Positions 10,704-61,974 of a DNA stretch of 64,000 nucleotides are shown piece after piece (the stretch's first letter is position 1; every line of letters begins with the position of its first letter). Both the position numbers and the translations under genes were made by a program. Source of the DNA: Malacoraja senta (lineage: Eukaryota); contig CM075990.1 of the NCBI GenBank assembly GCA_038087875.1, forward strand, positions 8,558,001 through 8,622,000, in the 5' to 3' direction. Under the pieces are notes generated by a model, which worked only from the letters and a program-made list of their open reading frames with translations, did not search any database and had not been told where the DNA came from.

Positions 10704-10798
10704 CAGTTTGAAGAAGGGTCTTGACCCGAAACAGCACCCATTCCTTCCCTCCAGAGATGCTGCTTGTCCCGCTACTCCAGCATTTTGTGTCTATCTTC
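10704..10798 (+). mobile_element. Penelope-like pLTR remnant with 17-bp TSD
   Basis: aatatactacactagtt at 10687-10703 and 10799-10815 flanks a degenerate hammerhead core plus the family body. Confidence 0.7.
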
Positions 10799-11059
10799 AA
10801 TATACTACACTAGTTGTGGTGCTAATATTTTGCAACTCATCTTATCTGCACATTTGTAAAAGTTACATTTTAAAATCTATGCACAAGTATAATGTTTGAC
10901 AACATCTCCTGCGGTTAATTATCTTTTATTTTCCACATCCTCCCCTCCTCTCGCCTTCCCCCTTCCTATCTTCTCATTCACACAGGTCAGTATGAAAGTG
11001 CAGGCGTAGGGATAGATCATTCACCTCTCATTCGCCTTACCATTCTACAGGGTCATGGC

Positions 11060-12230: not shown

Positions 12231-12889
12231 GTAGGAAAGAACTGCAGATGCTAGTTTAAATCGAAGGTAGACACAAAATGCTGGAGTAACTCAACAGGAC
12301 AGGCAGCATCACTGGAGAGAAGGAATAGGTGACGTTTCAGGTCGAGAAGAAGAGGGGTCTTGACCCGAAACATCACCCATTCCTTCTCTCCAGAGATGCT
12401 GCCTGTCCCACTGAGTTATTCCAGCATTTTATGTCTACCCCCATCATTCTTCTTCACTTAGCATGTCGACACTATTCTGAAGCCTCTCTGCATCCTCTTC
12501 ACAACTCGGACTGTCGCCTCATTAGAATACTTGGACGGATTACATTTGAGCTCCTCATCCACTGATATGATTTGGGACCTAGTAAGAATTGCTGATCACT
12601 GCACTGGTCACAGAATCCTAGTGTGGAAGTGACTGGTTATACCTGTTGTCTCTGCCCATTATCAATCCCAGTAAATTAAACCAAATACCACGCACTCCAA
12701 TTCTGCCCATTAAACCTTCAACAATTTCAACCCATTTTGCAATCCATCATGAGTCCAATTTGACTTTCCCCTATTCTATTATTTCCTAAGTGCCCTTTTA
12801 CCACTTCCTCGGTGATAGACTGCAGTATTTTTCCGATCACCAATTTTCATTTTCTCTCCACTTCCATCTTTAAATAATGAGGTTACATT

Positions 12890-19630: not shown

Positions 19631-20473
19631 AATTACAAGCAATGCATCACAACTGTCGAACCACAATCTAAACTACAATTATATTCTCCCTTTTAGAATC
19701 TAGTTAGTATCTTGAGTAAACTATTATCTTTAATTGATGCCTCTCGCCATTAATGATCATTTAACTTTAATTCAAAAGAAAAACTAATATTCACCAGCTA
19801 ATCACCCCCTATCTATCTGATTTCCTCAGATATAGTAAAGTCTTTTGGTTTTGACACCCCAATACTGCAAACTCCCTTCTTCTTTCGATAATCCGAGTTA
19901 TACCTGTTGACTTTTACTTTATTCATTTAATTAACATTTAGAAAATGATTCCATTGACTAAAAATAGTCTGACATTTTTTTCATATCCTTCAAGTTTGTC
20001 ATTTTATGTTTTTATCATTGTTTAATAATTCAACCATAAGCTAATTTCATGAACTCTTACCTTTTATTAATGTATTTTCAGTATTCAATATCCAGTTTAA
20101 TCTTCCAAATTCATAAAAAACAAACCCAGTTTCTTGCAAATCCCACTTCCTCTCACTAACCCACTGGCTTATACAACCAGCTTATTCAAATTCTACCAAT
20201 TATGTAAAATTTGTAGGAAGACAAAAATGCTGGAGAAACTCAGCGGAGGAATAGGTAATGTTGTAATTACAAGCATGTAATTGACTGAGCAGAACAACAA
20301 GTGAGGTAGAAAGATGCACCTTGCTAGTCTGAAGGAGTCTGAAGAAGGGTCTCGACCCGAAACATCACCCATTCCTTCTCTCCAGAGATGCTGCCTCATC
20401 CACTGAGTTTCTCCAGCATTTTTGTCTACCATCGATTTTTTTTTCAGCATCTGCAGTTCTTTCTTAAACATGT

Positions 20474-20858
20474 AACTTACAAAATTCTTAAGGGGTTGGA
20501 CAGGCTAGATGCAGGAAGATTGTTCCCGATGTTGGGGAAGTCCAGGACAAGGGGTCACAGTTTAAGGATAAAGGGGAAATCCTTTAGGACCGAGATGAGA
20601 AAAACATTTTTCACACAGAGAGTGGTGAATCTCTGGAACTCTCTGCCACAGAAGGTAGTTGAAGCCAGTTCATTGGCTATATTTAAGAGGGAGTTAGATG
20701 TGGCCCTTGTGGCTAAAGGGATCAGGGGGTATGGAGAGAAGGCAGGTACATGATACTGAGTTGGATGATCAGCCATGATCATATTGAATGGCGGTGCAGG
20801 CTAGAAGGGCCAAATGGCCTACTCCTGAACCTATTTTCTATGTTTCTATGTTTCTATG
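20474..20858 (+). mobile_element. Young CR1 LINE 3' end
   Basis: TYKILKGLDRLDAGRLFPMLGKSRTRGHSL..QRVVNLWNSLP..GYGEKAG and (tttctatg)n tail. An older CR1 remnant follows at ~20880-21720. Confidence 0.92.
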
Positions 20859-23800
20859 TAAAATTTGTATGTGGTTTATAGAGAGGTGGAATGGTTTCAA
20901 GACATCTGGTCATATGGGTGAGAAAGTAGCAAATGGAACTTAATGCAGATACTTAAGTCAGCTTCCTAAGTAGAAAATAGAACAATTCAGGGTGATGTAA
21001 ATTCATGCTGTTGGGAGATTCAATAAAATAAGATCAAACGCAATAAATGGAAGGACATCATGAATGGTGGAGAGATAGGGACCTTGGCGTGTAAGTTCAT
21101 AGGACCTTAAAGTTAGTAGGATAGTTCAAAAGGTGCTGAGTATGCTGTATCGTATTGGCTGTGATACAGAATATAAAAGCAGAAGGACAATGGTAAAATT
21201 AGATGCTGTGCCTGTTACAGTGCAGTTGAACCTCTGTTTCCACTTCTGGCCATGACATCTGGACAAAAAGGTGATGCATTGGAGATGGCGGGGAGGGGAT
21301 GCATGAGGCTACTGCCAGGAATGGAAAATCATGGCGATGAGGATGGATCAAATAGACAAAGGTATTTTTTTATAACAGAAGAAGCTAAGGAGGACTTAAC
21401 GGAGATGCATAAAATTATGAGGCACCTGGGCAGACTAAAAGGAAAGACACTCTCTCTCTAAGATGGGGTATCAAAAGGATGAGAGGGGAGATGAGGTCCG
21501 ATGATTTTGCCCAGAAGCTGAAAGCAAACTGAGACTCGCTGCCTGAAAAAGCAATGGAGGCAGACTCTCACCATTTATAAAGCATCTTAATATCTCCTTG
21601 AAAGACTGCAACTTGCATGGTTACAGATAAAGAGATGGATGGTAGAATTGGGCTGCATAGCTCTTTTTTTTAAAATCATGTAAGGACATGATGGGCTGAA
21701 TGGCTGCCTTGTGTTGTCAATTGTCTTTCCATGATATTCTTCTGCTTTCCTCCAACTGCGTTAACATTTTCCTTTAACTCTCAAAGAACCTCACCTTCTT
21801 TCTGTTAATACATAATCTCCACCTGAATTTTTACTTTTCTTCTTCAAGGTCTGCTTTAGATATTGCAGGGGCATCATGGTCATCATAGTTCACACTGTTT
21901 AAAAGCTCGCTCTGTAAGGACAAAAATCAATTTTTTGATGCCACGTTTGTTCCTCCTTCCAGAAGTTGATAAAATTGCATCGCTGCATTTGTTGATTCAC
22001 TCCATTATCTTAGTTCCCGATCAACTCTAGCAATTCTTAGCAACATGTTATAATTGATTTCTATCAGACTGACAAGTTTAACAGCAGTACTATCCAACCT
22101 CGAGACATACCCTGGCTTTTCTACCACACATTCTCTTGGATGTTCAATACATTTGTCCAAAACGTGTACTATCACCCAATGGATCTATTACATTTCAGCT
22201 GGTTTTAGTACCTAACTAGACCTTACTAGAGATTTCGTAAATACTTTTTTTGGATGTGTTCAGCCAGCTGATGTTCCTGTAATTGCTACACGTACTCTTG
22301 TCTCCTTTTTGAAAATTAGTGCTTTCATTTCACGCAGCCTTTAGGCACTTGCTGTTCTTTGCGAGTTTTGTTAAATCATTGCTGGATCGTTTTTACAATA
22401 TATTCCTTGCCCACCTGCAACATTTGCAGTCATCAAAATTAATTTCTTTATTCTTTCTCAAAATGACATTTAAATTCTTTTAAGAAAATTAAAGCTTTAG
22501 AAATGCTGGATGGGTCAGGCAGAAGCTGTGATGAGGGAAAGGCAATTGAATTCCTTGATCTTCAAAGTGACCCTGCAGCAACTAAAGACAGTCAGCACCC
22601 TCACACTGTGGAAAGAATGTTAGAAGGTACACAGGGAAAATGAATCACGGGAATGAGAAGAGGGAGTATGTCTGCATTTATGGGAGAAATAACATTTATT
22701 GAATGAATTTATGGAAAATCTGTGTTTCAGCCAGTTTGGTGATGTTACATGATGGGAGGACATGAGATAGGAGACAATTTCCTCAAGTGCACTGAAGGTT
22801 ACCTATACCAGAATCAGAGTTGTACCAAGAAGACAAAGGACGTTGGTGAGGTGCCAAAGACACGATTGCTGAGTTGGTCATTGTGTTTGTAGAGATCTCT
22901 CTTCATTTACCCTAAGAAATCACTTCATTTTGAGCATGTCACATGAAAAGAAGAGAGAGATTTTCACCGAGCTCCTATACATGTTCACACAAAGGGTGGT
23001 GGGTGTATAGAATGAGCTGCCAGAGGAGGTAGTTGAGGCAGGGACTATCCCAATGTTTAAGGCAGGTACATGGATTGGACAGGTTTGGACTGATATGGGC
23101 CAAACGTGGGCAGGTGGGACCAGTGTAGCCGGGACATGTTGGCCGGTGTGGGCAAGTTGGGCCGACATATCGCAGGTTGAAGATTATGGCGATGATGAGG
23201 ACCTCAATACATCATTGTGTCTGACACCTCACAGCCTCACCTCAGAGACTGCCTGTGAAGGGAATGAGAAGAATTGTTCAAGGGATATGTGACACAGGGA
23301 GATTTACCAACACTCACTCGTGTAACACAGCTTGGCGTCTGACCCAGGGATTCTAATAGGGACGCTCACCGGTATCAGGGTCTGCTCATCTGTACAGCCT
23401 GAGAAGACTTGGACGATGACTGCGATTGAAGTGTCCCCATAATCTAGCTGATGTAGAAGCACAGCGAGATGGGTAGTGAGATGCTCTGAGCAGCCTCAGC
23501 GCAGGAGCTGTTAAGAGGTGTGGAGGTCCCCATCTCCAAGCTCCTGTGGGATGTGGTGCGGGACAAGACAACCATGATCTCCATTCAAAATGTTTGTGTT
23601 CGTCTTCTAAGTCTGCACAAGTACTTGAGAGTCTTCAACGTACAACAATAGTCTTTATTACATTACTTCAATGCAAGACAACTCAAAATGGCTGCAACAC
23701 AGAATATGACTGCACATACAGACAGGATAACTATATACCAAAGATACTAGAGGAGCTCCGCTCTATAATCTTTGCTATATATATAGACATCTCCCTTTGT

Positions 23801-27345: not shown

Positions 27346-28432
27346 CCCTGTGACCCAATAGTTTTATTATCATATATTTATGGAGCCATAGGTGGTCTTG
27401 GTTGCGTTCAGTGTAAGTGCAGACATGGACTCAGTCAAGTATCTTGAACTTAGATTTTATATGGAAATGGTGCAGCAGCTGCTGGTCCCATCTTATGTAG
27501 CTCATCTGAACATATCACACAAACTAGCCTTGTCGGTGTGCGGCCTTTATTAAGTGTGGTGGTTTATTATGGACCAGCGAAGTGCAAACATTTATTGAAT
27601 ATTGAGAATCCTACCTGCTACATGTTGCCTAATCTGATGAAGCTTCTGCTCTGTTCCTTATATTCAATTCAATTCAATTCAATTCAATTCAACTTTAATG
27701 TCATTGCACAAATACTGAGTATGGGTACAACGAAATGCAGTTTTGCGTCAGTCCGTAGTAGTAGTGCAATATAGAAATTTAAAAAAAAAAGAGGATACAG
27801 AATAATCAAAAATACAGAATAATTAACAATGGGGACGGAGGGACCGGAGGAATCTATCGGCGGAACTCCGAGTTCAGCAATGCGACGGTATAATTGTAGA
27901 AGCTGTTCCTCATCCTACTGGTACGAGACCTGAGGCTCCTGTAGCTCTTGATATGTTAGCATAGAGGGGAAATAATAGTCAGGCATTGAATAGAGTCACC
28001 AGCAATAATTGAATGAGTTGGTGCTTTTATCCAATCGGACCTATACAATACTGCTGTGGTCACCCATTTCACAGACTAAGGCTTGTAATGAATACTGTCA
28101 AATTGACATCAAAGTAACTGATCCCCTGTTAATCCCAAATTGTGCAGGAGGACACAAGATCGATTCTACTTGTTCATTTTCTTTAGCTGTTTAATATGCC
28201 ATGTTCCAATTAATTTCATGATGATGATCGCAATCAATAATGTATTTAAAGCAAATTTCATGTGTTTCACGATGAACGGGAGCTTAACCACCCAGCTGCC
28301 ACTAACAAGAATGCTATCATAAGCCGGCAACCAATTCTTTTAACAAATACTTTTTATTTTAAATGAATGTAAGGCAAGCATGTAATTAGGTGAGCAGAAC
28401 AACAAGTGAGGTAGAAAGATGCACCTTGCTAG

Positions 28433-28560
28433 TCTGAAGCAGGGTCTCGACCCGAAATATCACCCATTCCTTCTCTCCAGAGATGCGGCATGCCCCGCTG
28501 TTACTCCAGCATTTTGTGTCTTTCTTCGATTTAAACCAGCATCTGCAGTTCTCTCCTACA
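28433..28560 (+). mobile_element. Penelope-like pLTR remnant with 11-bp TSD
   Basis: caccttgctag at 28422-32 and 28561-71. Confidence 0.7.
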
Positions 28561-30568: not shown

Positions 30569-32414
30569 AGAGCCTGTCCCACCAGCATGCGACTGCATGC
30601 GTCTAGCGCGACCAAACGTGGTGGCTTGAGCCATACGGCCTCGCGGGGCCGGTCCCACTTCCAACCGCGGAGCAGTATGGAGCTGGTCCCGACATCATAC
30701 TCACCAATCAGCCGGGCAAGAGGCGGGCCGACTGAATTTGGACGTCGCACGGCGTCGGGCGGTTACGTCATCATGCAACGGCATGCCGGGCGGTGACGTC
30801 ATCGCGCAACACCATGCGCTAGGCGTACGCCGTCAAGGCATAAGGTCCCACATAAGAGATTAGTATACAAACTTAAAGCACACGGTATTGGGGGTTCAGT
30901 ATTGATGTGGATAGAGAACTGGCTGGCAGACAGGAAGCAAAGAGTAGGAGTAAACGGGTCCTTTTCAGAATGGCAGGCAGTGACTAGTGGGGTACCACAA
31001 GGCTCAGTGCTGGGACCCCAGCTATTTACAATATATATTAATGATTTGGACGAGGGAATTGAATGCAACATCTCCAAGTTTGCAGATGACACAAAGCTGG
31101 GGGGCAGTGTTAGCTGTGAGGAGGATGCTAGGAGGCTGCAAGGTGACTTGGATAGGCTGGGTGAGTGGGCAAATGCATGGCAGATGTAGTATAATGTGGA
31201 TAAATGTGAGGTTATCCACTTTGGTGGCAAAAACAGGAGAGTAGACTATTATCTAAATGGTGGCCGATTAATAAAAAGGGAGATGCAACGAGACCTGGGT
31301 GTCATGGTACACATTGAAAGTAGGCATGCAGGTGCAGCAGGCAGTGAAGAAAGCGAATGGTATGTTAGCATTCATAGCAAAAGGATTTGAGTATAGGAGC
31401 AGGGAGGCTCTACTGCAGTTGTACAGGGTCTTGGTGAGACCACACCTGGAGTATTGCGTTCAGTTTTGGTCTCCTAATCTGAGGAAAGACATTCTTGCCA
31501 TAAAGGGAGTACAGAGAAGGTTCCTGGGATGTCAGGACTTTCATATGAAGAAAGACTGGATAGACTTGGCTTGTACTCGCTAGAATTTAGAAGATTGAGG
31601 GGGGATCTTATAGAAGGTAGAAAGATGCACCTTGCTAGTCTGAAGGAGTCTGAAGGTCTCGACCCGAAACATCACCCATTCCTTCTCTCCAGAGATGCTG
31701 CCTCACCCACTGAGTTTCTCCAGCATTTTTGTCTACCATCGATTTTTTTTTCAACATCTGCAGTTCTTCCTTAAACATGTAACTTACAAAATTCTTAAGG
31801 GGTTGGACAGGCTAGATGCAGGAAGATTGTTCCCGATGTTGGGGAAGTCCAGAACAAGGGGACACAGTTTAAGGATAAGGGGGAAATCTTTTAGGACCGA
31901 GATGAGAAAAACATTTTTCACACAGAGAGTGGTGAATCTCTGGAACTCTCTGCCAGTTCATTGGCTATATTTAAGAGGGAGTTAGATGTGGCCCTTGTGG
32001 CTAAAGGTATCAGGGGGTATGGAGAGAAGGCAGGTACAGGATACTGAGTAGGATGATCAGCCATGATCATATTGAATGGCGGTGCAGGCACGAGGGGCTG
32101 AATGGCCTACTCCTGCACCTATTTTCTATGTTTCTATGTTTCTAAGATGCTGCGTACGGCGTCAAGACACTGCGTATGGCGTCGAGGCGGTGCGTGCGGC
32201 CTCCATGCGGCAGCGGGCCGGCAGGCCTTTGCCGCGCGGAATTTTTTAACACTGTCAGTTTTTCGGTGCCCCGCCCGATGTCGGGACCAGCTCCGCACAA
32301 CTCCATGCGGCTCCCGCGATCGAAGTGGGACCGGCCCCGCGAGGACGCACGGCTAGCGCGACCACGTTAGGTCGCGCTAGCCGCATGCAGTCGCATGCTC
32401 GTGGGACAGGCCCT
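30569..32414. mobile_element. PIF/Harbinger-type MITE split by a CR1
   Basis: TIR agagcctgtcccaccagcatgcgactgcatgcg / cgcatgcagtcgcatgctcgtgggacaggccct, TAA TSD (30566-68, 32415-17). Confidence 0.85.
30838..32143 (+). mobile_element. Young 5'-truncated CR1 LINE (RT domain to 3' end), disrupted
   Basis: [32 protein letters not shown] motifs with stops and frameshifts, and a (tttctatg)n tail. Confidence 0.93.
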
Positions 32415-33037: not shown

Positions 33038-33646
33038 TTAAAGGAGTCTATGGCGGGCGAATAAGCAAGCCACACGTGGTGAATCAAAGAGATCCTTATT
33101 GTCAAAGCAAAGCTGCTTGGTTTCCCACAGCTCGTCCGCACGCACCGCTAGCAGCAGGGGATCTGCGAAGTCATCACCGGCGAGCAGCAGGCGGGTGTTG
33201 TCCGGCATGTGTTTCAAGAAGGCGTGTTTGAAGAGCAGGCAGGGCCGATGACCGTCCGTGAGGGTGAGCATCTCGCTCATGAGCACCGACGGCTTGCGAT
33301 CGCCGAGGCCGCCCATGTGCATGAGCCGCACTGCGCGGTCCCGGCGGCTGAGCCCAAAGGTCCGTAAGAGCAGCGCTTTAAGGCCCTCGTATTTGTCCTG
33401 ATCCGGTGGCGCACGTAGGTAAGGGACCAGGCGACCGGCCGTCTCCTGATCCAACGCACCGACCACATAGTAGCACCGGGTGTCATCAGCCGTGATGCGT
33501 CGAACGTGAAACTGGGACTCGGCTTGTTGGAACCAGACTTGAGGCTGCGATTTCCAGAACACGGGCAGCTTCAGGAAGACAGCATTCTGCTGGGATGGAT
33601 TGTCGGCGACCTCGGACTGTTGAGGTTGTTCATTGGCGGCAAACAT
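33038..33646 (-). CDS. Gypsy gag-like ORF (202 aa), C-terminally truncated and fused to the LTR remnant
   Basis: KLPVFW..PQVWFQQAESQF..I..D.T..YYVV.ALD and LGDRKPS.LM..M motifs are typical of Gypsy gag. It lies directly downstream of the PBS. Confidence 0.8.
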   Translation of the reverse strand: MFAANEQPQQSEVADNPSQQNAVFLKLPVFWKSQPQVWFQQAESQFHVRRITADDTRCYYVVGALDQETAGRLVPYLRAPPDQDKYEGLKALLLRTFGLSRRDRAVRLMHMGGLGDRKPSVLMSEMLTLTDGHRPCLLFKHAFLKHMPDNTRLLLAGDDFADPLLLAVRADELWETKQLCFDNKDLFDSPRVACLFARHRLL

Positions 33647-33941
33647 TGTTTAAATCCAAAATGACTGTTTTGGATCGTCGGGGTCACCAATATGGTGGGC
33701 GAATAAGCAAGCTACGTGTGGTTGTAAATAATAAACAAGCCACGTGTGAATAAAAAAAGATGTTTATTGTCAAAGCAAGGAGAACACACACACGCGAATG
33801 GGAGAAGGTTGACCCGGGGTTCATTATATACACCCCTATACCTCGTGACCACTCCTTCCCGCCATTACACAGTCACATGACCCTACCCCCGGCTGCCGAG
33901 GGTTCGCATAGTAAGTGGCCTAACCACCGGGTGGTGCCACA
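33049..33941 (-). mobile_element. Internally deleted Ty3/Gypsy (CsRn1-like) LTR retrotransposon
   Basis: 5' LTR 33941-33691, tRNA-Trp-type PBS tggtgaccccgacg at 33689-33676, 62-bp remnant of the 3' LTR at 33110-33049, 4-bp TSD agtc (33045-48, 33942-45). Confidence 0.85.
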
Positions 33942-39412: not shown

Positions 39413-39586
39413 GAAATCAGTGATTCGGAGATTCTGGAGCTCGTTCACAGTGCATTGGGCCGTATGACGGTGGTGAGACAGATCTTCCCTACCTCCAAGG
39501 ACTTGAACCGCAGGTGTATGAGAAACAACCATCGCATTTCCTCGCTGCTGTGCGACCCGCAGGAGGGCTACTTTCAAACACTACAG
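39413..39586 (+). CDS. GRID1: GRID1 internal coding exon (174 nt, ~exon 6): [58 protein letters not shown]
   Basis: Acceptor aacAG and donor GTctgt. Contains the GluD1 motifs [17 protein letters not shown] and [16 protein letters not shown]. Joins in frame with both neighbouring exons. Confidence 0.96.
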
Positions 39587-40430
39587 GTCTGTAAGTGACA
39601 GAAGTGAATCGACCTTGTCTGCGAACCTTGTACAGGGGTGTGTGCTTGGAATGTTCTGAAATAATTCTCCGTTCGAGCAGTTACAGGGGAGACGCACGGT
39701 CCCTGAGATCCCTCGGATCGCGATGTCCGTGAAAATAATATTAGGCATCAGTTGCTGCATAACGGCGTGAAGTCTGGAAATACACATCGAGAGCAGTCCG
39801 ACAGTGTTTCTGTCTGCTCTGTCTGTGTTCGTTCTGTGAGGAGGTGGATGATAGAGAGACTGTGATCTGGAGAGGTAACATGCTTTGTTATCTGGCAAAG
39901 TAACAGCATAAATCAGGTGGAATAGTGACAATGTCTGTCATAAGGGAAGTTGGCTGCATCTGTCACATAGAGGGTGACTGATATTTTTAAATGAAGATAT
40001 TACCAATCGGGACAGAAGTTTAGTATCAACAACCGAGATTAGGAGAAACTTCTTTAATGTTAAATTAAACATTCATCATCTGTTTCATTATTCAGCGGGG
40101 ATTTTAATAATACCTTTTTTAACTGGGTCTCGATGCTCAGCTAGGTTGAAGTTTTGTTTCTCTAATGCTGGTGTAAGGGTTCAGGTCTAACCCCTTTGGG
40201 CTGATCGTGAAACAGAGCTCTGTTTTCAGAAGATAATTCTCCTCTGCGTGGAAGGAGAATTTCACACAGCTTTACCAAAGGGTACTGGGAAGTAAAAAGG
40301 ATCTGACTCATTTAAGAGAGCAGACACTCCAAGTGGATTGGAAGTCAAACATTTGGAAAGGCATTTTGCGCACATTATCACCCTTCCACATGTCTACGCT
40401 CACGCAAATTTACATTTGCAGACCAATTAA

Positions 40431-41823
<1,393 letters not shown>

Positions 41824-41869
41824 TTTTTAGTGGGTTGGATGATCAATGGATGGGGGGATGAGCTTTGTT

Positions 41870-42125
41870 GTGTAAGAAGGAACTGCAGATCTTGGTTTAC
41901 ACCAAAGCTCGACACTAAATGCTGGAGTAACTCAACGGGTCAGGCAGCATCTCTGGTGAAAAGGAATAGGTGATGTTTCGGGTCGAGACCCTTCATCACA
42001 CTGTTGGGAATGGGTGACTGAAGAGGTCTGAAGAAGAGTCGCGACCCAAAACATCACCCATTCCTTCTCTCCAGAGATGCTGCCTGTCCCACTGAGTTAC
42101 TCCAGCTTTTTGTATCTATCTTCAC
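41870..42125. mobile_element. Inverted pair of Penelope-like pLTR remnants
   Basis: Reverse arm ending cccttcatca, a short spacer, then forward arm ctgaagaagagtcgcgacccaaaacatc... Confidence 0.65.
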
Positions 42126-42493
42126 CTGAAGAGCTAAAGCTGGTCAATAAAATAAAGCGACTTCCCTCGGTTGTGGTCCCAGCACTAGGCTTGGATAAGC
42201 CAAAGGAATCTCTAGTTCTGCAGCTACACAACCATCGGATTGGGTTGTGAGTGAATTTTGGATCAACATGATACTTTCTTTGCCTGTAGCAGTTTCGAAA
42301 AATGTTACACAAGGAATAGCATCATTCCATGCACATCCTGTTGGAAGCTGGAATGAGGACAGGGAAGATTTACAAGTATGTTGCCAGACTTTGAGGACCC
42401 AAGTTATCGGGAGAGGTTGGGCAGGCTAGGACATTATTCCTTGGAGAATAGGAGACTGGGGAATAATATTAACGAAGTATATAAAATCATGAC

Positions 42494-44484: not shown

Positions 44485-45290
44485 AGTCATAGAGTCATAG
44501 AATTATACAGCATGGAAATAGGCCCTTCGGCCCAGCTTGCCCACACCAACCAACATGTCCCATCTACACTAGTCCCACCTGCCTGCATTTAGCCCATTTC
44601 CCTCTAGTCCTGTCCTATCTACGTGCCTGTCTAAATGTTTCAGGTCTCCAGAGATGCTGCCTGTCCCGCTGAGTTACTCCAGCTTTTTGTATCTATCTTC
44701 ACCTGAAGAGATAAAGCTGGTCAATAAAATAAAGCGACTTCCCTCGGTTGTGGTCCCAGCACTAGGCTTGGATAAGCCGAAGGAATCTGTAGTTCTGCAG
44801 CCACAGAACCATCGGGTTGGGTTGTGAGTGAGTGCCTCAACTACCTCCTCCGGCAGTTCGTTCCATACACCCACCACCCTTTGTGTGAAAAAGTTACCCC
44901 TCAGGTTCCTATTAAATCTTTCCCCCCTCACCTTAAACCTACATCCTCTTGTTCTCGATTCCCCTATTCTGGGCAAGAGACTCTGTCTATATACCCGATC
45001 TATTCCTCTCATGATTTTGTACATCTCGATAAGATCACCCCTCAGCCTCCTGTGCTCCAAGGAATAGAGTCCCAGCCTGCTCAACCACTCCCTATATCTC
45101 AGGCCCTCGAGGCCTGGCAACATCCTTGTCAATCTTCTCTGCACCCTTTCCAGCTTGACAATGTCTTCCCAGCAACATGGTGCCCAGAATTGAACACAAT
45201 ACTTCAAATGCAGCCTCACCACCGTCTTATATAACTGCAACATGACCTCCCAACTTCTATATTCAATACTCTGACTGATTAAGGCCAATG
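44485..45290 (-). mobile_element. CR1 LINE 3' fragment carrying a 187-bp templated insertion
   Basis: ORF 44674..45306(-): LERVQRRLTRMLPGL..FFTQRVVGVWNELP. (gagtcata) tail. Confidence 0.9.
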
Positions 45291-45959: not shown

Positions 45960-46121
45960 ATATCCAACCTGTACCTGTACGATAGTGTCCTATTGTTGGC
46001 TGGAGCCTTCCACAAAAAACTAGAGGACCGGAAGTGGCACAGCATGGCAAGTCTGAACTGCATGAGGAAGTCCACAAAGTCTTGGAATGGAGGGAGATCC
46101 ATGCTGGACACCATTCGAAAC
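45960..46121 (+). CDS. GRID1: GRID1 internal coding exon (162 nt, ~exon 7): [54 protein letters not shown]
   Basis: Acceptor tactgcAG and donor GTaagt. Lies within ORF 45933..46169 and has the delta-receptor signature [19 protein letters not shown]. Confidence 0.97.
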
Positions 46122-47159
46122 GTAAGTGAAGCTGAAAAGGTGAGAGTGTTCAATATAGACAGTGGTTAGGAGAGAGACACAAAATGCTGGAGTAACTCAG
46201 CGCGTCAGGCAGCATCTCTGGATAGAAGGAATAGGTGACGTTTCGGGTCGAGACACTTCTGGCTGGCTATCAGGATATCCAGGGACATTCCAAGTCGCCC
46301 ATTGAATGGTCCCATCATGAGAGTTATCAATCCCAGTTTCTTTTCCTTGTATTTAACTACCAGAAAAAGAACTTGTGTAGGAGGGAAGTGCAGATGCTGG
46401 TTTAAACCGAAGATAGACACAAAAAGCTGGAGTAACTCAGCGGGACAAGCAGCATCTCCGGATAGAGGAATGGGTGATGTTTCGAGTCGAGACCGTTCTA
46501 CAGACAAGTAAATGCCGTGCTAAGCTCTTCCTCTATTTATTCCATTTATATCAACTTCCCTCTTGTTTTCCCCTCCCCATTCCATCAGCATCTTCCTTTG
46601 GTCCATCCTGATTCCACACTCCTCTCCACTGAATCTTGCCTGGGGTATATAGGCACTGAAGACATACTGTAGGGCCTCCAGCTAAATCCTAGTGTGTGGT
46701 GCATGCTAACGATAAAAAGCACTTTGCTTCTTCAGCGCGGAAACCCTAGTACAGGGGAAATTAAATCACAGAATTTCCCGAAGGGTCCCGACCCAAAACA
46801 TTGCTCATCCATGTCCTTCAAAGATGGTGCCTGACCTGCTGAGTTACTCCAGCACTTTGTGCACTAGACAGAATCTCAGCACTACTTCGTAAATGGGTCT
46901 GATGAAGCCAAAATACGCCAGAGAATTAACCAGTCGTTAATTGCACGGTGATCTGTTTAAAATCTCAATAACAACCAAAGACACTCTGTTGCGAGGGATG
47001 CTTGTCTATTTTGAAGGCAGTAGATTTTCACCCAATACCATTTTAATGCAGAAGTGACTTAGCTGCATTGTAGTTGTTTGATGGAGCTGCGTTTTTAGCT
47101 CAAAAGCTGCCTTGCCACCAATTATAGTGGACCCCGCCACTAATTTGGAACGGTGGTAT

Positions 47160-53100: not shown

Positions 53101-53446
53101 GTAGGAAAGAACTGCAGATGCTGGTTTAAATTGGAGGCAGACACAAAATGCTGAAGTAACTCAGCAGGACAGGCAGCAAGTCTGGAGAGAAGGAATGGAT
53201 GACGTTTCGGGTCGAGACCCTTCTTCAGTCGGAAGCCGAGACAACACTTCCCCTCTCTCCCATCTACTTCCCCATCTCATGTTTGCAGTCGGAAGAAGGG
53301 GCTCGACCCGAAGCGTCACCCATTTCTTCTCTCCAGAGATGCCGCCTGTCCCGCTGAATTATTCCAGCATTTTGTGTCTACCCTTCAAAGTGTTTTATTA
53401 AATGTATTGACAGTGTAAACCAGCATCTGCAGTTCCTTCCAGCACA
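53100..53446. mobile_element. Inverted pLTR pair with a captured 52-bp spacer
   Basis: The arms are reverse complements. The spacer matches 55941-55992. Confidence 0.7.
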
Positions 53447-54749
53447 TGTAGTCAGTTGTGATAGGGCAAAGAGTAGCAAGCAACTTGAAAATAGCAAACT
53501 CCCTTAAAGCATTTAGTCTGTTCTCAGAGTTTTGGCAGAAGGATAAGCAAAGGTAAGGATACCAAGTTGACAATTTAAGATAGGTTTATTTACTAAATTT
53601 GGTCACTGTTTATAGACTCGTGCCTACCCTTTTCTCTGATGCACTGGCCCTCGGTACTTTAACTCTTAAAGGGAGAACTTCATATTCTAAACACTACCTG
53701 GCAATATTCACTGCATCCATTGAAGCTGAGAATGGCAGATCTCTGTCAGCCTTTGGGGATCAGAATTAGAACCGGGAGAGGGACAGGTATTTAGTGTTTG
53801 ACGTGTAGGAAGGAACTGCAAATGCTGTTTTAAACTGAAGATCGACACAAAAAGCTGGGGTAACTCAGCGGGTCAGACAACATCTCTAGAGAGAAAGAAT
53901 AGGTGACATTTTGGTTCGAGACCCTTCTTCAGACGAATGGTCTCGATCTGAAACGTCACCTATTCCTTTTCTCCATAAATGCTGACTGACTCGTTGAGTT
54001 ACTCCAGCTTTTTGTGTTGATCTTGTTTGGTGTTAGATGCAGTACAGACTAAGTGTTAGAGAATGGCTGGTCCAGTGTAGTGGCGTTGTAATACTCGGAT
54101 TAAATGGTAAATGTGACAGGCTCAAATTCACCGGCTTGGGCTGATCCTGCAGCCCAGTGAAGTCACCCTGGCTTTAGCTGACAGCATGTCCATCACTGAA
54201 AGCTCTCGGCTGATCAAACACCACACATCTCTGCAGTTTGACCATGTCCTTGGTACTTACAACCTGGGAGGCATAATACAGATGGGAGTATTCACCTCCC
54301 ATTGACCTGCTGATTCCCAAAACTTTCTTGGCTACTTTGGAGTGATTTCATAAACGACTAAAGGTTGATATCTAAGACTTGATTCATTCCAACCACTGAC
54401 CTTTCATGGAATTATGTTGGAATCAGTTATGAATGATTCCCTCTGCAGTGTGAGGTTGTGACCTCCAGCTCCGCCTGTTTCAACATGAAGCTATGGTCCA
54501 CGTTTATCTTCTCCAGGTCGTCTGCTCATATCAGGCTCATTCTCAGTGGTTTCTTCCAAGGTTGAACAGCACGACTTCTCCAGCTTGTTTCAATCCACAA
54601 CATTATCCAGTGTTGCTAATCATAAGAGTCATACAGCATGGAAACAAGCGCCTTTGCCCAACTTTCCCACGCAACCACAATACTCCATCTACACTTGTCC
54701 CACCTGGCTGCATTTGGTCCATATTCTTCTAAATGTATCCAATCCATGT

Positions 54750-55330: not shown

Positions 55331-56441
55331 GTAATTGTATCAGTACCTGCCCAAGTCTTTTTCAAATGTTGTTATAGTACCTGCCTCAGTTACCTCCTCT
55401 GGCAGCTCATCCTATATACCTACCGATGGAGATTCTATTTTAATGTCTTTCAGCAACAGCGGTGAATCTGTGGAATTAATTGTCACAGATGGCTGTGGAG
55501 GCCAAGTCAATGGATATTTTTAAGGCGGAGATAGATAGATTCTTGATTAGTACGGGTGTCATGGGGAGAAGGCAGCAGAATGGGGATGAGAGGGAGAGAT
55601 AGATCATCTGTGATTAAATTGATGGGCCAAATGGCCTAATTCTGCTCCTATCACTTATGAACATGAACAACTGTGGCTGTATCACTTTTTACAACAAACT
55701 TCTGACTCAATTACTTCAGTTCTCTTCTGTTGAACATTTCATCACAGTCAGGTACAGGGAAATATACAAGGCCTTTTAGACAGTGTGGTGTCTCTCCTTT
55801 TACATTCATTTTGTGGATGCAAATTTTGTGGATACTCTATTGATTTTCCAGTTGATTCCAACTGCCTGCACAGTAACAGTTGTGATATTAATCCTATGTG
55901 TTTTTTAATCAGTATTTCCCCCACACTTCTCATCAATCCCAGCCAAGACAACACCTCCCCTCTCTCCCATCTACTTCCCCATCCCATGTTTGTATCCCAG
56001 TCGTTTACATATAAAACCTTCATATAGACACAAAATGCTGGAGTAACTCAGCGGGACAGGCAGCATCTCTGGATAGAAGATCCAGATCTCTGGATCTCTG
56101 GGTGACGTTTCAGGTCGAGACCCTTCATCAGACTGAGCGTCAGGGGTGAGGGAGTTACAGAGATGAGGAAGTGTAAGAGATCTAAAGAAAATCTTAATTG
56201 TATCAGTTTTGTATCATGCAAGATAAAACATTCAATTGGTCTCATTTAGTCATAGTGTCCTCTCGGTGACAATTTCAAGATTAAGAAATAGTTTGTTTGG
56301 AAATGGCAATATTTTGATCTTGCAGAATCATTCTTTAATCCAAACTGCTAGTCGATTATCAGCTTATAAAAATCAGCACTCATTTAATGATCAGAATCTT
56401 TATAATGCTTTGCCTGTACTGGCTCATATAATAGCAACATA

Positions 56442-56825: not shown

Positions 56826-59800
56826 AATAGCAACATACAATGCTGAAAAGGTTCTGATGAATGGCCATTGATCTGAAATTGTAACTTTGTTTTTTTTTCT
56901 CTTCTATCAATGCTGCCTAACTTGCAGAGTATTTTGAGCAGGTTCTTTTTTTCATGATTTCAGATTTCCAGGATGTGCAGTGCTTTGATTTTTTTTGCCT
57001 TTATCAGTCTGTCTCTGTTTTGTTCCTCTTTGGTTATAATATCAATTCTATTCCAAACCACAGAATCTCTCAGCTGTCTTTGATCTGTCAAAGTAGTGCA
57101 AACACTTTTCAAATATTTATACCCTGAGCCAAATACCATGTATTGCTCAGGATTTGTATGCTTGGAGCCTTTTCAGTCCTGTGAGTCTGCGCTTCATTGA
57201 TGCCACAGGTATCATTGGTGTCATTGGTGTCAGGATATAGTTATTGGTTTATTATTTTCACGAGGGCTGAGATACAATGACAAATTTTGTTTGCATGCTA
57301 TCGAGTCAGGTTGCACTGTACATGGGTATAATACACAATTACAACAGGTAGTATAAAGAAAATAATAAAAGTGCAGAATATAGTTTTACAGCCTTATAAT
57401 GTTACAGATTGTGTTGACATTGGAGCATTATTATTAGTTTAGTATAGAGATACAGCATGGAAACAGGCCCTTCGGCCCACCGGGTCTGCGCTGACTAGCG
57501 ATCCCTGCACATTAACACTATCCTCCACCCACTAGGGACAATCTTTACATTTACCAAGCCAATTAACCTACAAACCTGTACGTCTTTGGAGTGTGGGAGG
57601 AAACCGAAGATCTCGGAGAAAATCCATGCAGGTCACGGGGAGAATATACAAACTCCGTACAGACAGCACCCGTAGTCGGGATCGAACCCGGGTATCCGGC
57701 GCTGCATTCGCTGTAAGGCAGCAACTCTACCTCTCTGCCGCCGTGAATGTTCTGAGTTATGTTTATGCTTATGTTCCATATGTCTGTGGCCGTTCCCATC
57801 CACATCTATTAGAATTTTGCATCAGTTGAGTGAAAACTTTCCTCTGCAACTGTGGCCTTGATTCAGACTCTGACAATACAACGAAAGTTACTCCAAATTG
57901 AACCCGGGTTACTACAAAAATCTGCACAACTTGTTGTTATTCCTCATTTTTTTTTTCCATAAAGAGAACCAAAGGATGGTTAGGACTCTAAAGAGGTTTG
58001 AAGTGCCCGCGTGAATCATTCAATATGAAATTACTGACTGATACATCATGAGACGTCCATAACAACACCATATAATACACTGTAAGCTAATAAACAATAA
58101 CACTTGTGTAGGAAGGAACTGCAGATGCTGGTTTAAACCGAAGATAGACACAAAATGCTGCAGTTACTCAGTGGGACAGACAGCATCTCGGAAAAAAAAG
58201 AATAGGTGATGTTTTGGGCCGAAACCCTTCTTCTAACAATTGATCATTTGAATGCTCTTTGCCTTTGCAGGGGTGATTGTTGTGATAAAAATCACTTGCT
58301 GAAGAAATCAGAATTTAGCTTTAAGTATCACAGTATTTAGTGTTTTATCTGTTGGGTTCTTATTTGCCAGTGTTAGCATTTTATTTTAACAACCATTTAC
58401 TGCAGATGGTAGTCACGGACTGGAGGGCTTTGATCAGCAATGTGGCCAAAGGAGCCAATGGAGATAGATGAAGCAAAATAATTCATGGGGCGATATTGAT
58501 CGCTGGTTGAAGTGTGGGGGAGAATTGTGTTGATTACTGGTGGTAGCAGGCATCATCAAAACGTCAATGTATTGAAACGAGTTACGCCTCAATGCAATTG
58601 TCATCGCACTGCCTGTTGATCACTCTGCGGTCTTCCTTCCTATACATATTGTGATGAGCAAACACATTAGAAGGGAAGCTGCTGTCACTAATGAAGAAAA
58701 ATCTCTTAAAGTCAATGAGCTTCCTGCAAAATAAAACGTGCAAGAAGATAATTGGTAGTCGGATAAGGATGGGCAACAATTACAGAGTGAGTGCTGTCAC
58801 TCATTGCAAAACATGCCACATAAAATACATCATTAAACACGTTTAAGAAGCAATTACAAAATTATCTTGCAATTATGAATTGTAGAGATTATTTTAACCT
58901 TTACATTGGCAGTTCTGAGAGGAAGACGAATGAAATGAAAATTATAATATTTTAATAAAATATTTCCCATATAATAAAATAAAAATAAAATTACTTCTGG
59001 ACCTTATTATTCCTGCTGCTGGCACAAGATTTTTAGACGGGAGATCCAGTAATATGTCCATCAACTAAATGGTGCTCAGAATATCTATATCTATCTTTTA
59101 GAGCTGCGCAGCCTGCCTTTGGGATAATCACTGACTGATGCATCACAAGATGTCTATAACAATACCGTGCAATATACTGTAAGCTAATAAACAAAAGGAG
59201 CCTGCCATTGGAATAAAGGAGATCACGGAGATTAATATGGCAAAGTTCAGTAAATAATCTAATTTGTGAAGCATACCGTAAGATCTAATGTTAACCAGTA
59301 ATCATGAGGATTTTATTTGTTATGGTTCCTTGAATCATATTATAATCTCAAAATTAATTTTAGGAGTCAAGACTCGACACATGAGAATCAGACTTATGCT
59401 TGCAGATATGACTAGAGGCTTAATGGGTTCATGTGGTCATCCTCTGTTCAGAATCAGTCCATCTATTTTTATGAGTTAATGCCGCTGCTAAATTGCAGAA
59501 AGGAAAATTCATGTAAGCGCATTAAGTAGTTCTCCATTAAAGCCTTCTTCTCTGGCTGTTAGCAGATCCTCTGACCCTATCATTTCAAATCCACTTTCTA
59601 ACACTGTTCATTCAAACATCACCCCGAAAAGCTGTGCAGGGAGGAACTGCAGATGCTGCTTTAAACCAAAAACAGACATAAAAGGCTGGTATAACTCAGC
59701 ATCCCTGGAGAAAAGGAATAGGTGACGTTTCGGGTCCAGACCCTTCTTCAGATCCCAAAAAGCTGCTTCTTTGCCCACTATTTGGGATTCCATAGACTCC

Positions 59801-59828: not shown

Positions 59829-60053
59829 ATATTGTTGGAAGGAACTGCAGATGCTGGTTTAAATCGAAGATAGACACAAAATGCTGGAGTAACTCAGTGG
59901 GACAGGCAGCATCTCTGGAGAGAAGGAATGGGTGATGTTTCGGTTCGAGACCCTTCTTCAGACGTTTGGATCTTGACCCGAAACGTCACCCATTCCTTCT
60001 CTCCAGAAATGCTGCCTGTCCAGCTGATTTACTGCAGCATTTTGTATCTATCT
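59829..60053. mobile_element. Inverted pLTR pair with 11-bp TSD
   Basis: tgggttaaagc at 59818-28 and 60054-64 encloses both arms. Confidence 0.75.
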
Positions 60054-60734
60054 TGGGTTAAAGCTTGTGTGCCCTACTATTGTATTAGTCTTGCATTCTA
60101 GTTTGAAGGAGGTCGCATTAAACATCCCCATTGTGGCTCCACCCTGAATTGCAATGAGAGTAACCACACTTCAGGAATGATGGCAAGTTTTTGGGGAAGG
60201 TGTAGACGAGATTTAGTGGAATGGCCCAAGAATTGAAAGACCATTGTGAAGAGTCTTCAGAAGCTAGGTTTGGCCTTCTTGTAGCAAAGAAATGCAAGGT
60301 ATGATTTAATGGAGGTGTTCAAAGTTACTTTGATGAAGCATCTAAGGAGAAATAATTGCTATTGATGGGAAGCAATAACATGCTGGGAAATGAGGAGAAT
60401 TTTACTTACATCCTGTGATTTGAAAAGGGGGTGGTGGAACCAGGTTTGGTAGTAACTTTCAAAAGTCAATGGAAGATATTATGCAAAAGAAAACCAATTT
60501 GGGAGTGGGGGTGGGTCCTATGTCCATGAATGGTCCTTGATTACATTGGCTGCTTTCCCACATCAATGTGAAGTGTAGCTAGAGTTAATGGTGTTAAGGC
60601 TGGTTTGTGTGATGGACTGGGACTGCATCCACAACTCTCTGTGGTCTTGGATGCGGCAGTTACCAAATCATGCTATGATACATCGAGATAGGAGAAGTGG
60701 TAACGATCATTGGAAACATGCTGAATTTGCTTAA

Positions 60735-60972: not shown

Positions 60973-61812
60973 TTAGTCTTCTGATGAAGTCACTGATGAA
61001 GTTGAGGCGTTGGTGTACTTTCTTGGTTATAGCATCAATGTGGTTGTACCAAAACAAATTGGTGGCGATATTTGCACCTCTGAACATTAAGCTCTTGACT
61101 CCCTTCACTCTGGCACTATTGATACTGTTGTGTGAGGTTCATCTTTTGACAACTAGCTCCTTTGTTTTGTTGGCATTGTGGGACAGGTTGTTGTATTGAC
61201 ACCAGGTCACTAAGCTCTCTACTTCCTGTACTTTGTCTGGCTATTACTGGAGATCCAGCCCCCAACAGTGGCGTCATTTGCTAACTTGGAAAAGGTGTTA
61301 GAGCAGGAGTGTTGAGGGAATATCACAAAGGGCTGAAAACACAGCCTTGTGCCCCAGCATTGTACTCATTGTAGTAGTGTTGAGAATTTTCATGGAGGAT
61401 ATTTTGTCACCAACCAGTCCTTGTGTCGGGAAGTCAAGGATCCAAGGATTGGACAGGGGAGCAGTGAGCCAGAGGACCAGGAGTTTGGAGATGAATTTGC
61501 TTGGAGTTATGGTAGTGAAGGCAGAGCTATAGTCAATGATGTGGGACTACTCTGCCCACTTTTGCTATAGGCCTTATATGGAAAGAATATCCATTGAACT
61601 CTGGGGCCTGGTGTTGGATCCAATCGCATTTGGTCATGAACCCACCCACTCTGCTTCCTTCCCACCAGACAACCCATCAGTTACACAACCTGCTTACTTT
61701 ACATCCTATCTATTGCACACTTTGTCCAGTTTTCATCCAAGCAGGCCCAATTTGACCATCATCCATCCTCCCCATTAGACTACTATATCTCTTGTTTCTC
61801 TAATCCCTAACC

Positions 61813-61846
61813 AGTCTGAAGAAGGGTCTCAACCCGAAACGTCACC
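61813..61846 (+). ncRNA. Minimal type-I hammerhead ribozyme motif within a pLTR (~61780-61946)
   Basis: CTGAAGA-A-GGGT(ctca)ACCC-GAAAC-GTC at 61816-61843 contains all core nucleotides. Stem III is reduced to palindromic ACGT. Activity untested. Confidence 0.65.
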
Positions 61847-61974
61847 CATTCCTTCTCTCCAGAGATGCTGCCTGTCCCACTGAGTTGCTCCAGCTTTTTG
61901 TGTCTATCTTCAGTTTACTCTGGCATCTGAAGTTCCTTCCTACACATTTCGACTACCCACCATGTCTTCCCCTT

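What the first reader, a model, noticed from the sequence alone, without database searches (positions are those of the whole stretch)
61780..61946. Abundant short repeat carries a minimal hammerhead ribozyme (Penelope-like pLTR family)
Seen: a ~130-250 bp repeat occurs more than 30 times in the window. Its conserved centre reads CTGA(A/T)GA-A-GGGTC-TC-GACCC-GAAAC-GTC. The best sense copy is at 61816-61843; good antisense copies are near 53201-53229, 56105-56131 and 59724-59750. Established knowledge: this is the hammerhead core (CUGANGA, stem II, GAAA, NUH site). An extra A between A9 and G10.1 is tolerated in some natural hammerheads. Minimal type-I hammerheads lacking a stem III loop are a known hallmark of Penelope-like pseudo-LTRs and are thought to act as dimers via the palindromic ACGU. 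Inference: these are non-autonomous PLE remnants, and sense copies place potential self-cleaving sites inside the GRID1 pre-mRNA. Only about 2 bp of stem I is visible, so a distal or trans partner may be needed.
Basis: partly seen in the sequence, partly recalled or inferred. Interest (0 to 1): 0.7.

Follow-up and report, generated by a model that had tools for sequence, protein, structure and literature searches.

The report
Penelope-element tails carrying decayed minimal hammerheads
This very abundant 130-base repeat in an intron of a glutamate-receptor gene carries a minimal hammerhead ribozyme motif and is most likely the leftover end of a Penelope-like jumping gene, a known arrangement whose scattered copies are decaying and are predicted not to cut the host RNA.

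Summary
There are 50 copies of a 130-bp repeat at 37 loci (8% of the window; 0 hits in 3 shuffles). The copy at 61816-61843 has all 11 hammerhead core bases, the extra A, a 4-bp stem II and the ACGU palindrome, but only 2 bp of helix I. The family shows the insertion signature of Penelope-like elements (PLEs): 13 head-to-head inverted pairs, a ~30-nt tail on one arm only (11 of 13 pairs) and target-site duplications. One outside record places the repeat directly before a Neptune-type GIY-YIG end; the window holds no PLE ORF. GRID1 is confirmed on the + strand. Cleavage of its pre-mRNA is unlikely: no copy meets the published descriptor (helix I of 3 bp or more), the catalytic G12 decays like any CpG, sense and antisense solo copies are 12:12, and the fold is about 4.6 kcal/mol uphill. 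New detail: most copies start 2-4 nt before the core rather than at the cut site, so they were likely copied from uncut RNA, possibly up to its 5' end. Verdict: a new member of a known kind, low interest.

The parts
61783..61811 (+). Pyrimidine-rich upstream piece of the pseudo-LTR, kept only in a minority of copies
   Evidence: 82% identical over 28 nt to 18598-18625. In four public runs its summed depth is 1-18% of that of the bin holding the core.
61812..61815 (+). Sharp 5' edge of most copies (CAGT); 61814-61815 is the 5' arm of the 2-bp helix I
   Evidence: 26 of 50 hits start at model columns 1-4. Agreement among 23 copies falls from 21/23 at -1 and 20/23 at -2 to 12/23 at -3 and 10/23 at -4. 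Loose ends before 61812-61815 have no consensus (agreement 0.31-0.44).
61816..61843 (+). Minimal type-I hammerhead: CUGAAGA, extra A, 4-bp stem II, GAAA, palindromic ACGU in place of stem III, C17 (predicted cut after 61843)
   Evidence: Sequence; descriptor scan; consensus features in PMC4209133.
61844..61910 (+). Body of the repeat after the predicted cut site, up to the first class of 3' ends; 61844-61845 is the 3' arm of helix I
   Evidence: 17 of 50 hits end at model columns 94-110.
61911..61947 (+). Optional ~30-35 nt 'tail' (second class of 3' ends)
   Evidence: 20 of 50 hits end at columns 129-131; present on exactly one arm in 11 of 13 inverted pairs.
59835..60064 (.). Head-to-head inverted pair (nearest neighbour of the flagged copy); tail on the minus arm; folds as a long hairpin
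   Evidence: -147.5 kcal/mol.
53805..54026 (.). Head-to-head inverted pair, tail on one arm
53102..53441 (.). Inverted pair with a 57-nt spacer; holds the only exact match to the 28-nt centre (53201-53228, minus)
41873..42129 (.). Head-to-head inverted pair, tail on one arm
12232..12441 (.). Head-to-head inverted pair, tail on one arm, 8-10 bp flanking direct repeat
56016..56133 (-). Antisense solo copy with intact core (N7 = U) and 2-bp helix I
59637..59752 (-). Antisense solo copy with intact core and a 10-12 bp target-site duplication
56854..56986 (+). Old, diverged subfamily member with a 4-bp helix I (GGTT/AACT) and compensatory pairs, but a mutated C15.2/C17 region
45960..46121 (+). GRID1 (GluD1) coding exon, amino-terminal domain (host context)
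   Evidence: Pfam ANF_receptor E=6e-9; PDB GluD1 E=1e-29 versus GluD2 1e-25; AG/GT borders.
39482..39586 (+). Preceding GRID1 coding exon (host context)
   Evidence: Found with a recalled short motif. AG/GT borders, 105 nt, and it joins in frame to the next exon as LQ/ISN, as in the PDB chain.

Best explanation
The repeat carries a minimal type-I hammerhead motif and is likely the 3' (pseudo-LTR) end of a Penelope-like retroelement, probably of the Neptune clade, inserted many times as 100-130 bp pieces that now decay neutrally and are predicted not to cleave GRID1 pre-mRNA. Shown: the motif, the two classes of 3' end about 30 nt apart, head-to-head pairs with the tail on one arm, target-site duplications, the sharp 5' edge 2-4 nt before C3, and CpG decay of G12. 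Inferred from PLE biochemistry: the element's RT-GIY-YIG protein nicks the target, starts reverse transcription at one of two internal sites about 70 and 100 nt past the hammerhead, copies through the uncut hammerhead and stops just upstream of it. When both target strands are primed, the two cDNAs join 5'-to-5'. The hammerhead was likely under selection in the master elements, where it would act as a protein-assisted or dimeric ribozyme, and not in the inserted copies.
For: Head-to-head pairs: 13 against 2 tail-to-tail (p=0.004); random placement gives a mean of 1.8, max 9 in 5,000 trials. Tail on exactly one arm in 11 of 13 pairs (p=0.011), as described for PLEs: a 31-bp tail optional on one inverted pLTR, 8-10 bp TSDs, head-to-head junctions and solo pLTRs (PMC3846280; PMC8557442). 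Flanking direct repeats scoring >=8 at 10 of 36 loci, against 2% of 600 mismatched controls. PAc, a purified PLE protein, nicks and extends both strands, starts at two internal sites that define the tail, and uses uncut RNA (PMC11167929). Protein P0010 (ENA) reads through the repeat at residues 47-87; from residue 105 another frame of it fits 13 of 13 positions of two Neptune endonuclease motifs at the right spacing, against at most 11 in 500 shuffles and at most 9 in 23 other proteins. Core conservation: non-CpG core 0.92 vs 0.84 downstream, p=0.012; internal A/U core 168/176 vs 1346/1593, p=0.02. Compensatory changes in older copies: U-A x3 at helix I pair 2 and A-U x3 at the stem II closing pair. 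Neutral decay: G12 G>A makes up 14.0-15.4% of depth in four runs, the highest of six CpG positions compared; solo copies are 12 + and 12 -; the ribozyme fold lies about 4.6 kcal/mol above the ensemble.
Against: No PLE RT or GIY-YIG remnant in 440 translated window pieces or by motif. The ORF link rests on one unnamed record, read through an alternate frame, with the endonuclease end downstream of the repeat rather than upstream as in a full element. The excess conservation is modest: the CUGA-GA box alone is not significant once edge bias is removed (126/138 vs 1304/1487, p=0.24), and the covariation score was reached by 24 of 500 shuffles among related sequences. Two pairs of copies are local duplicates, so the 50 hits are not fully independent. 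No copy meets the published descriptor's 3-bp helix I. No cleavage or transcript data.
Confidence: 0.8

Rival explanations
1. A dedicated non-autonomous family (a SINE-like or retrozyme-like mini-PLE) with its own short transcript starting at about 61813 is mobilised in trans by a PLE; the 100/130-nt units would be full-length copies of it.
For: The 5' edge is sharp in four runs and lies at a TCAGT-type initiator-like sequence in the long copies (initiator consensus recalled). Penelope has an internal promoter (PMC2377424). Rare head-to-tail joints of 95-99 nt exist in other genomes.
Against: A minority of copies run on upstream into pyrimidine-rich sequence, as expected for the ends of a longer element. 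Only 3 same-strand neighbours lie within 120 nt in the window, none as a perfect tandem, unlike non-LTR retrozymes.
Confidence: 0.3
2. Sense copies are active ribozymes that cut GRID1 pre-mRNA, alone or with a partner copy.
For: The copy at 61816 keeps all 11 core bases, ACGU and stem II. 2-bp helix I forms are listed among natural PLE hammerheads (D. virilis, Culex, Oikopleura; PMC4209133 Fig. S3).
Against: Monomeric minimal hammerheads showed no cleavage and dimers low cleavage (PMC4209133). PAc's needs its protein. Only 1 of 9 Xenopus dimers cut (bioRxiv 2026.07.22.740005). The only other sense copy with intact core and ACGU is 48 kb away. A half double-hammerhead scores -9.4 kcal/mol against -11.8 for two free monomers. 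No strand bias. G12 is not protected.
Confidence: 0.07
3. The repeat is a miniature inverted-repeat DNA transposon (MITE), and the hammerhead look is incidental.
For: 13 of 37 loci are long inverted repeats that fold as hairpins.
Against: 24 of 37 loci are solo single arms. The arms differ in length and at both ends, are 14-42% apart, and join at variable internal points. TSDs vary from about 7 to 15 bp. The hammerhead has every PLE-type peculiarity (extra nt at 9/10.1, G10.1-C11.1, palindromic 15.2-16.2).
Confidence: 0.03

Closest known systems
Minimal type-I hammerheads (min-HHR) in pseudo-LTRs of metazoan Penelope-like elements (Cervera and de la Pena 2014, PMC4209133)
   Same: CUGANGA + one extra nt, G10.1-C11.1, stem II, GAAAC-GU-C with palindromic 15.2-16.2; mostly single dispersed motifs from truncated PLEs; second motifs on the opposite strand nearby.
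   Different: Helix I is 2 bp, below the 3-7 bp of the published descriptor (like the D. virilis, Culex and Oikopleura exceptions). No cartilaginous fish is among the 56 aligned motifs that I read. Most copies begin 2-4 nt before C3.
Endonuclease-bearing PLEs, Neptune clade (PMC8557442, PMC3846280) and the Poseidon element PAc (PMC11167929)
   Same: Head-to-head inverted 5'-truncated arm, optional 30-40 nt tail at one end, short TSDs, hammerhead about 70-100 nt upstream of the 3' ends.
   Different: No ORF in this window. The insertions are nearly all 100-130 nt with a shared 5' edge. Unlike PAc, no RT ORF was found starting in the hammerhead.
Animal non-LTR retrozymes (bioRxiv 10.64898/2026.07.22.740005; PMC7229834 seen as listing only)
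   Same: Non-coding, PLE-derived, type-I hammerhead.
   Different: Dispersed and inverted rather than tandem; abundant in an intron, whereas Xenopus retrozymes are reported as excluded from introns; units are not bounded by the cut site.

Membership tests
PLE minimal hammerhead (min-HHR) | Catalytic core C3-A9, G12-A15.1, U16.1, H17 | tested here: met
   Flagged copy; 10 of 26 core-covering copies keep all 11 bases.
PLE minimal hammerhead (min-HHR) | Extra nucleotide between 9 and 10.1, and G10.1-C11.1 | tested here: met
   A61823; G61824-C61835; G-C in 18 of 31 aligned copies.
PLE minimal hammerhead (min-HHR) | Stem II of 3-7 bp with a loop of 3-10 nt | tested here: met
   4 bp + 4-nt loop; pair probability 0.6-0.7 in the 165-nt context.
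PLE minimal hammerhead (min-HHR) | Palindromic 15.2-16.2 with no loop 3 | tested here: met
   ACGU 61839-61842; broken by CpG decay in many copies (G16.2 kept in 21 of 45).
PLE minimal hammerhead (min-HHR) | Helix I of 3-7 bp (published RNAmotif descriptor) | tested here: not met
   0 hits at >=3 bp, 4 hits at 2 bp. The same paper lists 2-bp exceptions found by hand. An old copy has 4 bp but a mutated core.
PLE minimal hammerhead (min-HHR) | Core more conserved than flanks; covariation across subfamilies | tested here: inconclusive
   p=0.012-0.03 for the core overall and for the internal A/U core; p=0.24 for the 5' box; weak covariation.
PLE minimal hammerhead (min-HHR) | Self-cleavage as a dimer or with protein help | not testable with these tools
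   Bench assay needed; only contigs, no raw reads, were available.
Rfam hammerhead families | Match to a curated covariance model | tested here: not met
   No hammerhead family at E <= 1.
Endonuclease-bearing PLE (Neptune/Poseidon) | RT + GIY-YIG ORF joined to this pseudo-LTR | tested here: inconclusive
   None in the window; one outside record has a Neptune-type endonuclease end right after the repeat; no genome held.
Endonuclease-bearing PLE (Neptune/Poseidon) | Inverted 5'-truncated arm, head-to-head | tested here: met
   13 pairs; opposite-strand joints in other genomes.
Endonuclease-bearing PLE (Neptune/Poseidon) | Optional 30-40 nt tail, often at one end only | tested here: met
   3' ends: 17 at columns 94-110, 20 at 129-131; 11 of 13 pairs asymmetric.
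Endonuclease-bearing PLE (Neptune/Poseidon) | Short target-site duplications | tested here: met
   10 of 36 loci vs 2% control.
Non-LTR retrozyme | Tandem units, each with a complete hammerhead | tested here: not met
   No such tandem in the window; only rare 95-99 nt head-to-tail joints in other genomes.

The most novel reading that the evidence does not exclude
The 100/130-nt copies are 'strong-stop-like' cDNAs: the PLE transcript starts at the initiator-like A at 61813, three bases before the hammerhead core, and the RT starts at either of its two internal sites near the 5' end of that RNA and runs off the cap. A dimeric RT primed on both target strands, one subunit at each start site, then joins two such cDNAs head-to-head, which would explain both the inverted pseudo-LTR and the one-sided tail of PLEs. 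These genomes would hold a very large natural record of that step.
Probability: 0.3. Interest if true: 0.5.

Novelty: new member of a known kind. Interest (0 to 1): 0.22.

Why it matters
The hammerhead-PLE link is known, so the finding adds one lineage and a 2-bp helix I variant. Its use is as test material. The family is dense (50 copies in 64 kb; over 170,000 contigs laid from one public run) and has a sharp 5' edge and one-sided tails, so it could show how PLE inverted ends form and whether the hammerhead is cut during transposition, both still open. A role in regulating GRID1 would be surprising, but nothing here supports it.

Tried and rejected
No genome is held for this window, so a genome-wide extension to a PLE ORF could not be done. 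Rfam: only weak miRNA-type hairpin hits on the inverted pairs, all below gathering score. Exact DNA patterns gave 0 matches in viral contigs, metagenomes and prokaryote genomes. Run search: no RNA holder on record, so nothing is said about expression; the four runs laid were all contigs, so RNA ends could not be seen. Pfam on 440 translated pieces, covering 427 of the 502 non-repeat pieces of 42 aa or more (the 75 shortest minus-strand pieces were not scanned): no GIY-YIG or PLE domain. The two RVT_1 hits lie in LINE fragments that I read as CR1-type from recall. The repeat's one open frame found only spurious read-through ORFs, none with an RT domain (1 hit; 22 hits, of which P0003 and P0009 are unrelated repeats), so a PAc-like ORF start inside the hammerhead is not supported. 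Follow-ups on P0010 residues 95-158 found no relatives, one chance phage hit L001 and none in genomes. A cut-site-defined 5' end was rejected: only 2 of 50 hits start at columns 28-36. A distal helix I was not established: no consistent partner appeared in the folds. A 3' splice site at the 5' edge, as in D. virilis, fits the upstream YAG but predicts a shared exon 1, which the loose ends do not show. Literature: no paper describing this family was found. Lunse et al. 2017 is not held and is known to me only from its citation in PMC6765202. Repbase and Dfam were not available and may already list the family. The bioRxiv supplements, which cover one chondrichthyan, are closed.

Full report
Observation. 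The flagged stretch is one copy of a dense repeat. An iterated nhmmer model finds 50 hits (25 on each strand, 5,144 of 64,000 bases) and none in 3 of 3 shuffles; they form 37 loci: 13 pairs, 12 solo + and 12 solo -. The 28-nt centre matches 12 times with up to 3 mismatches, against 0.00 expected. At the flagged copy the sequence shows C3-A9 at 61816-61822, an extra A at 61823, a 4-bp stem II (61824-61827 with 61832-61835) closed by a 4-nt loop, G12-A15.1 at 61836-61839, the palindrome ACGU at 61839-61842 and C17 at 61843. Helix I is two pairs (61814-61815 with 61844-61845). Core plus stem II occurs 8 times in the window, against 0.06 in 100 shuffles. Rfam has no matching hammerhead model at E <= 1.

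Is it a hammerhead? PMC4209133 (main text parts 1-2 of 4 and the text of supplementary file 2 read; file 1 unreadable) gives the consensus of PLE minimal hammerheads: CUGANGA, one extra nucleotide, G10.1-C11.1, GAAAN, palindromic 15.2-16.2, NUH. All of these are met here. Its descriptor asks for helix I of 3-7 bp, which no copy meets (0 hits; 4 hits at 2 bp), but its alignment includes 2-bp cases (D. virilis, Culex, Oikopleura). Non-CpG core columns are better kept than downstream columns (0.92 vs 0.84, p=0.012). With base composition matched and edge columns left out, the figures are 168/176 vs 1346/1593 (p=0.02), mostly owing to the 24 older copies (p=0.03) rather than the 26 younger ones (p=0.05). 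The 5' box alone, in the 23 copies that start at column 3 or earlier, is not significant (p=0.24). On 31 aligned copies, older members show U-A for G-C at helix I pair 2 (3 copies) and A-U for G-C at the stem II closing pair (3 copies); the covariation score was reached by 24 of 500 shuffles, which is weak for related sequences. I read this as selection on the motif in the master elements (inference).

Is it a PLE end? Four independent insertion features say so. (1) Of 18 neighbouring hits within 120 nt, 13 are head-to-head, 2 tail-to-tail and 3 tandem; random placement gives 1.8 head-to-head pairs on average, max 9 in 5,000 trials. (2) The 3' ends are bimodal: 17 at model columns 94-110, 20 at 129-131, 13 elsewhere; in 11 of 13 pairs exactly one arm has the longer end (p=0.011). 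(3) Flanking direct repeats score 8 or more at 10 of 36 loci, against 2% in 600 mismatched controls. (4) Opposite-strand joints recur in other genomes. PMC3846280 (12 of 13 passages read) and PMC8557442 (12 of 26 passages) describe the same set for PLEs: an inverted 5'-truncated pLTR, a 30-40 nt tail often at one end, 8-10 bp TSDs, and solo pLTRs. The window has no PLE ORF: 440 translated pieces gave no GIY-YIG domain, and motif scans were blank. One outside link exists. P0010, an unnamed ENA ORF, reads through the repeat with its tail (residues 47-87), and from residue 105 another frame of it is compatible with 13 of 13 positions of two motifs printed for Neptune endonuclease C-termini (PMC8557442 supplement), 33 residues apart; shuffles reach at most 11 (0 of 500) and 23 other proteins at most 9. 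This is one record of 22 hits, and the endonuclease end follows the repeat rather than preceding it, so it shows adjacency of the kind PLE tandems give, not identity of the master.

The 5' edge. 26 of 50 hits begin at model columns 1-4 and only 2 near the cut site. Among 23 copies, agreement upstream of C3 is 21, 20, 12 and 10 of 23 at -1 to -4, then background. Four public runs from four organisms were laid as contigs: 172,217 contigs from run X19 alone, at single-copy depth 31 outside the repeat. The best-supported loose ends lie before 61812-61815 (X19: 1,589, 858, 848 and 564 contigs) with no shared consensus; 61812 is listed in all four runs, and 778 further rows were not shown. The 30 nt upstream are present at a few per cent of the depth. 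So the template was RNA that had not been cut at C17. That agrees with PMC11167929 (parts 1-2 of 4 read): the PAc protein nicks and extends both strands, starts at two internal sites that bound the tail, does not need hammerhead cleavage, and its hammerhead cuts only with protein. Why copying stops at this edge is open. The long copies read YCAGTCT there, which resembles a Pol II initiator (consensus recalled), and Penelope has an internal promoter (PMC2377424, abstract and section 14 read). Run-off at the RNA's 5' end is my preferred reading; an RT stall at structure and a splice acceptor are the alternatives.

Host context and activity. Two GRID1 exons lie on the + strand, at 39482-39586 and 45960-46121. 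The flagged copy is 15.7 kb past an internal exon and sense to the gene; that it is intronic follows from GRID1 having further exons (established knowledge; none was found in the window). Activity there is unlikely. Ten of 26 core-covering copies keep all essential bases, 4 of them sense; only 61816 and 13184 also keep ACGU, and they are 48 kb apart. The constrained ribozyme fold is 4.6 kcal/mol above the ensemble (P about 6e-4); a half double-hammerhead scores -9.4 against -11.8 kcal/mol for two monomers; paired arms fold into -95 to -148 kcal/mol hairpins (6 pairs folded). Across the four runs the catalytic G12 is G>A in 14.0-15.4% of depth, the highest of six CpG positions compared (contigs at 85% likeness or more, and depth is no copy number). 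Solo copies are 12:12 by strand, and hits downstream of the first exon are 10:11. Published assays agree: no monomer cleavage and low dimer cleavage, and 1 of 9 Xenopus dimers cut (bioRxiv 2026.07.22.740005, parts 1 and 3 of 5 and passages read).

Comparison and novelty. It works like, and by most tested features is, a PLE pseudo-LTR with a minimal hammerhead; it fails the 3-bp helix I rule and the retrozyme tandem rule. The lineage is likely a skate or ray; this is my recall of the repeat landscape plus two earlier unchecked scan notes, and comes from no call of mine. Searches found no paper on this family, and no cartilaginous fish is among the 56 motifs of PMC4209133 Fig. S3, but Repbase, Dfam, Lunse et al. 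2017 and the bioRxiv supplements could not be seen. Verdict: real, correctly recognised, a new member of a known kind; interest 0.22. The most novel open reading, short run-off cDNAs joined by dual priming, I put at 0.3.

Noticed in passing
window 20270-20860, 28375-28439 and 31614-32147 (all +): A LINE 3' end carrying a copy of the repeat occurs twice at about 95% identity. Both copies also share 25-56 nt with the flank of a third copy at 28431, suggesting local re-copying with a template switch inside the GRID1 region.
   Followed up: partly
window 53234-53285 and 55941-55992: The spacer of an inverted pair matches (49 of 52 nt) DNA 2.7 kb away beside another copy: a possible templated insertion, or a second upstream pLTR variant.
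   Followed up: partly
window 42067-42254 and 44645-44831: Local duplication (about 95%) of part of a repeat copy plus its 3' flank.
   Followed up: partly
window 46169-46260 (-): A repeat copy sits 48 nt downstream of the GRID1 splice donor at 46122.
   Followed up: no
window 33041-33649 (-): 203-aa ORF with Pfam DUF7041 (E=9e-19), probably an LTR-retrotransposon gag remnant (from recall).
   Followed up: no
window 40290-41860: About 1.4 kb of CA-rich microsatellite followed by a CT run, next to an inverted pair of the repeat.
   Followed up: no
window 10706-10820 (+): Tail-less copy flanked by a 17-nt direct repeat, seen by eye and missed by the script.
   Followed up: no
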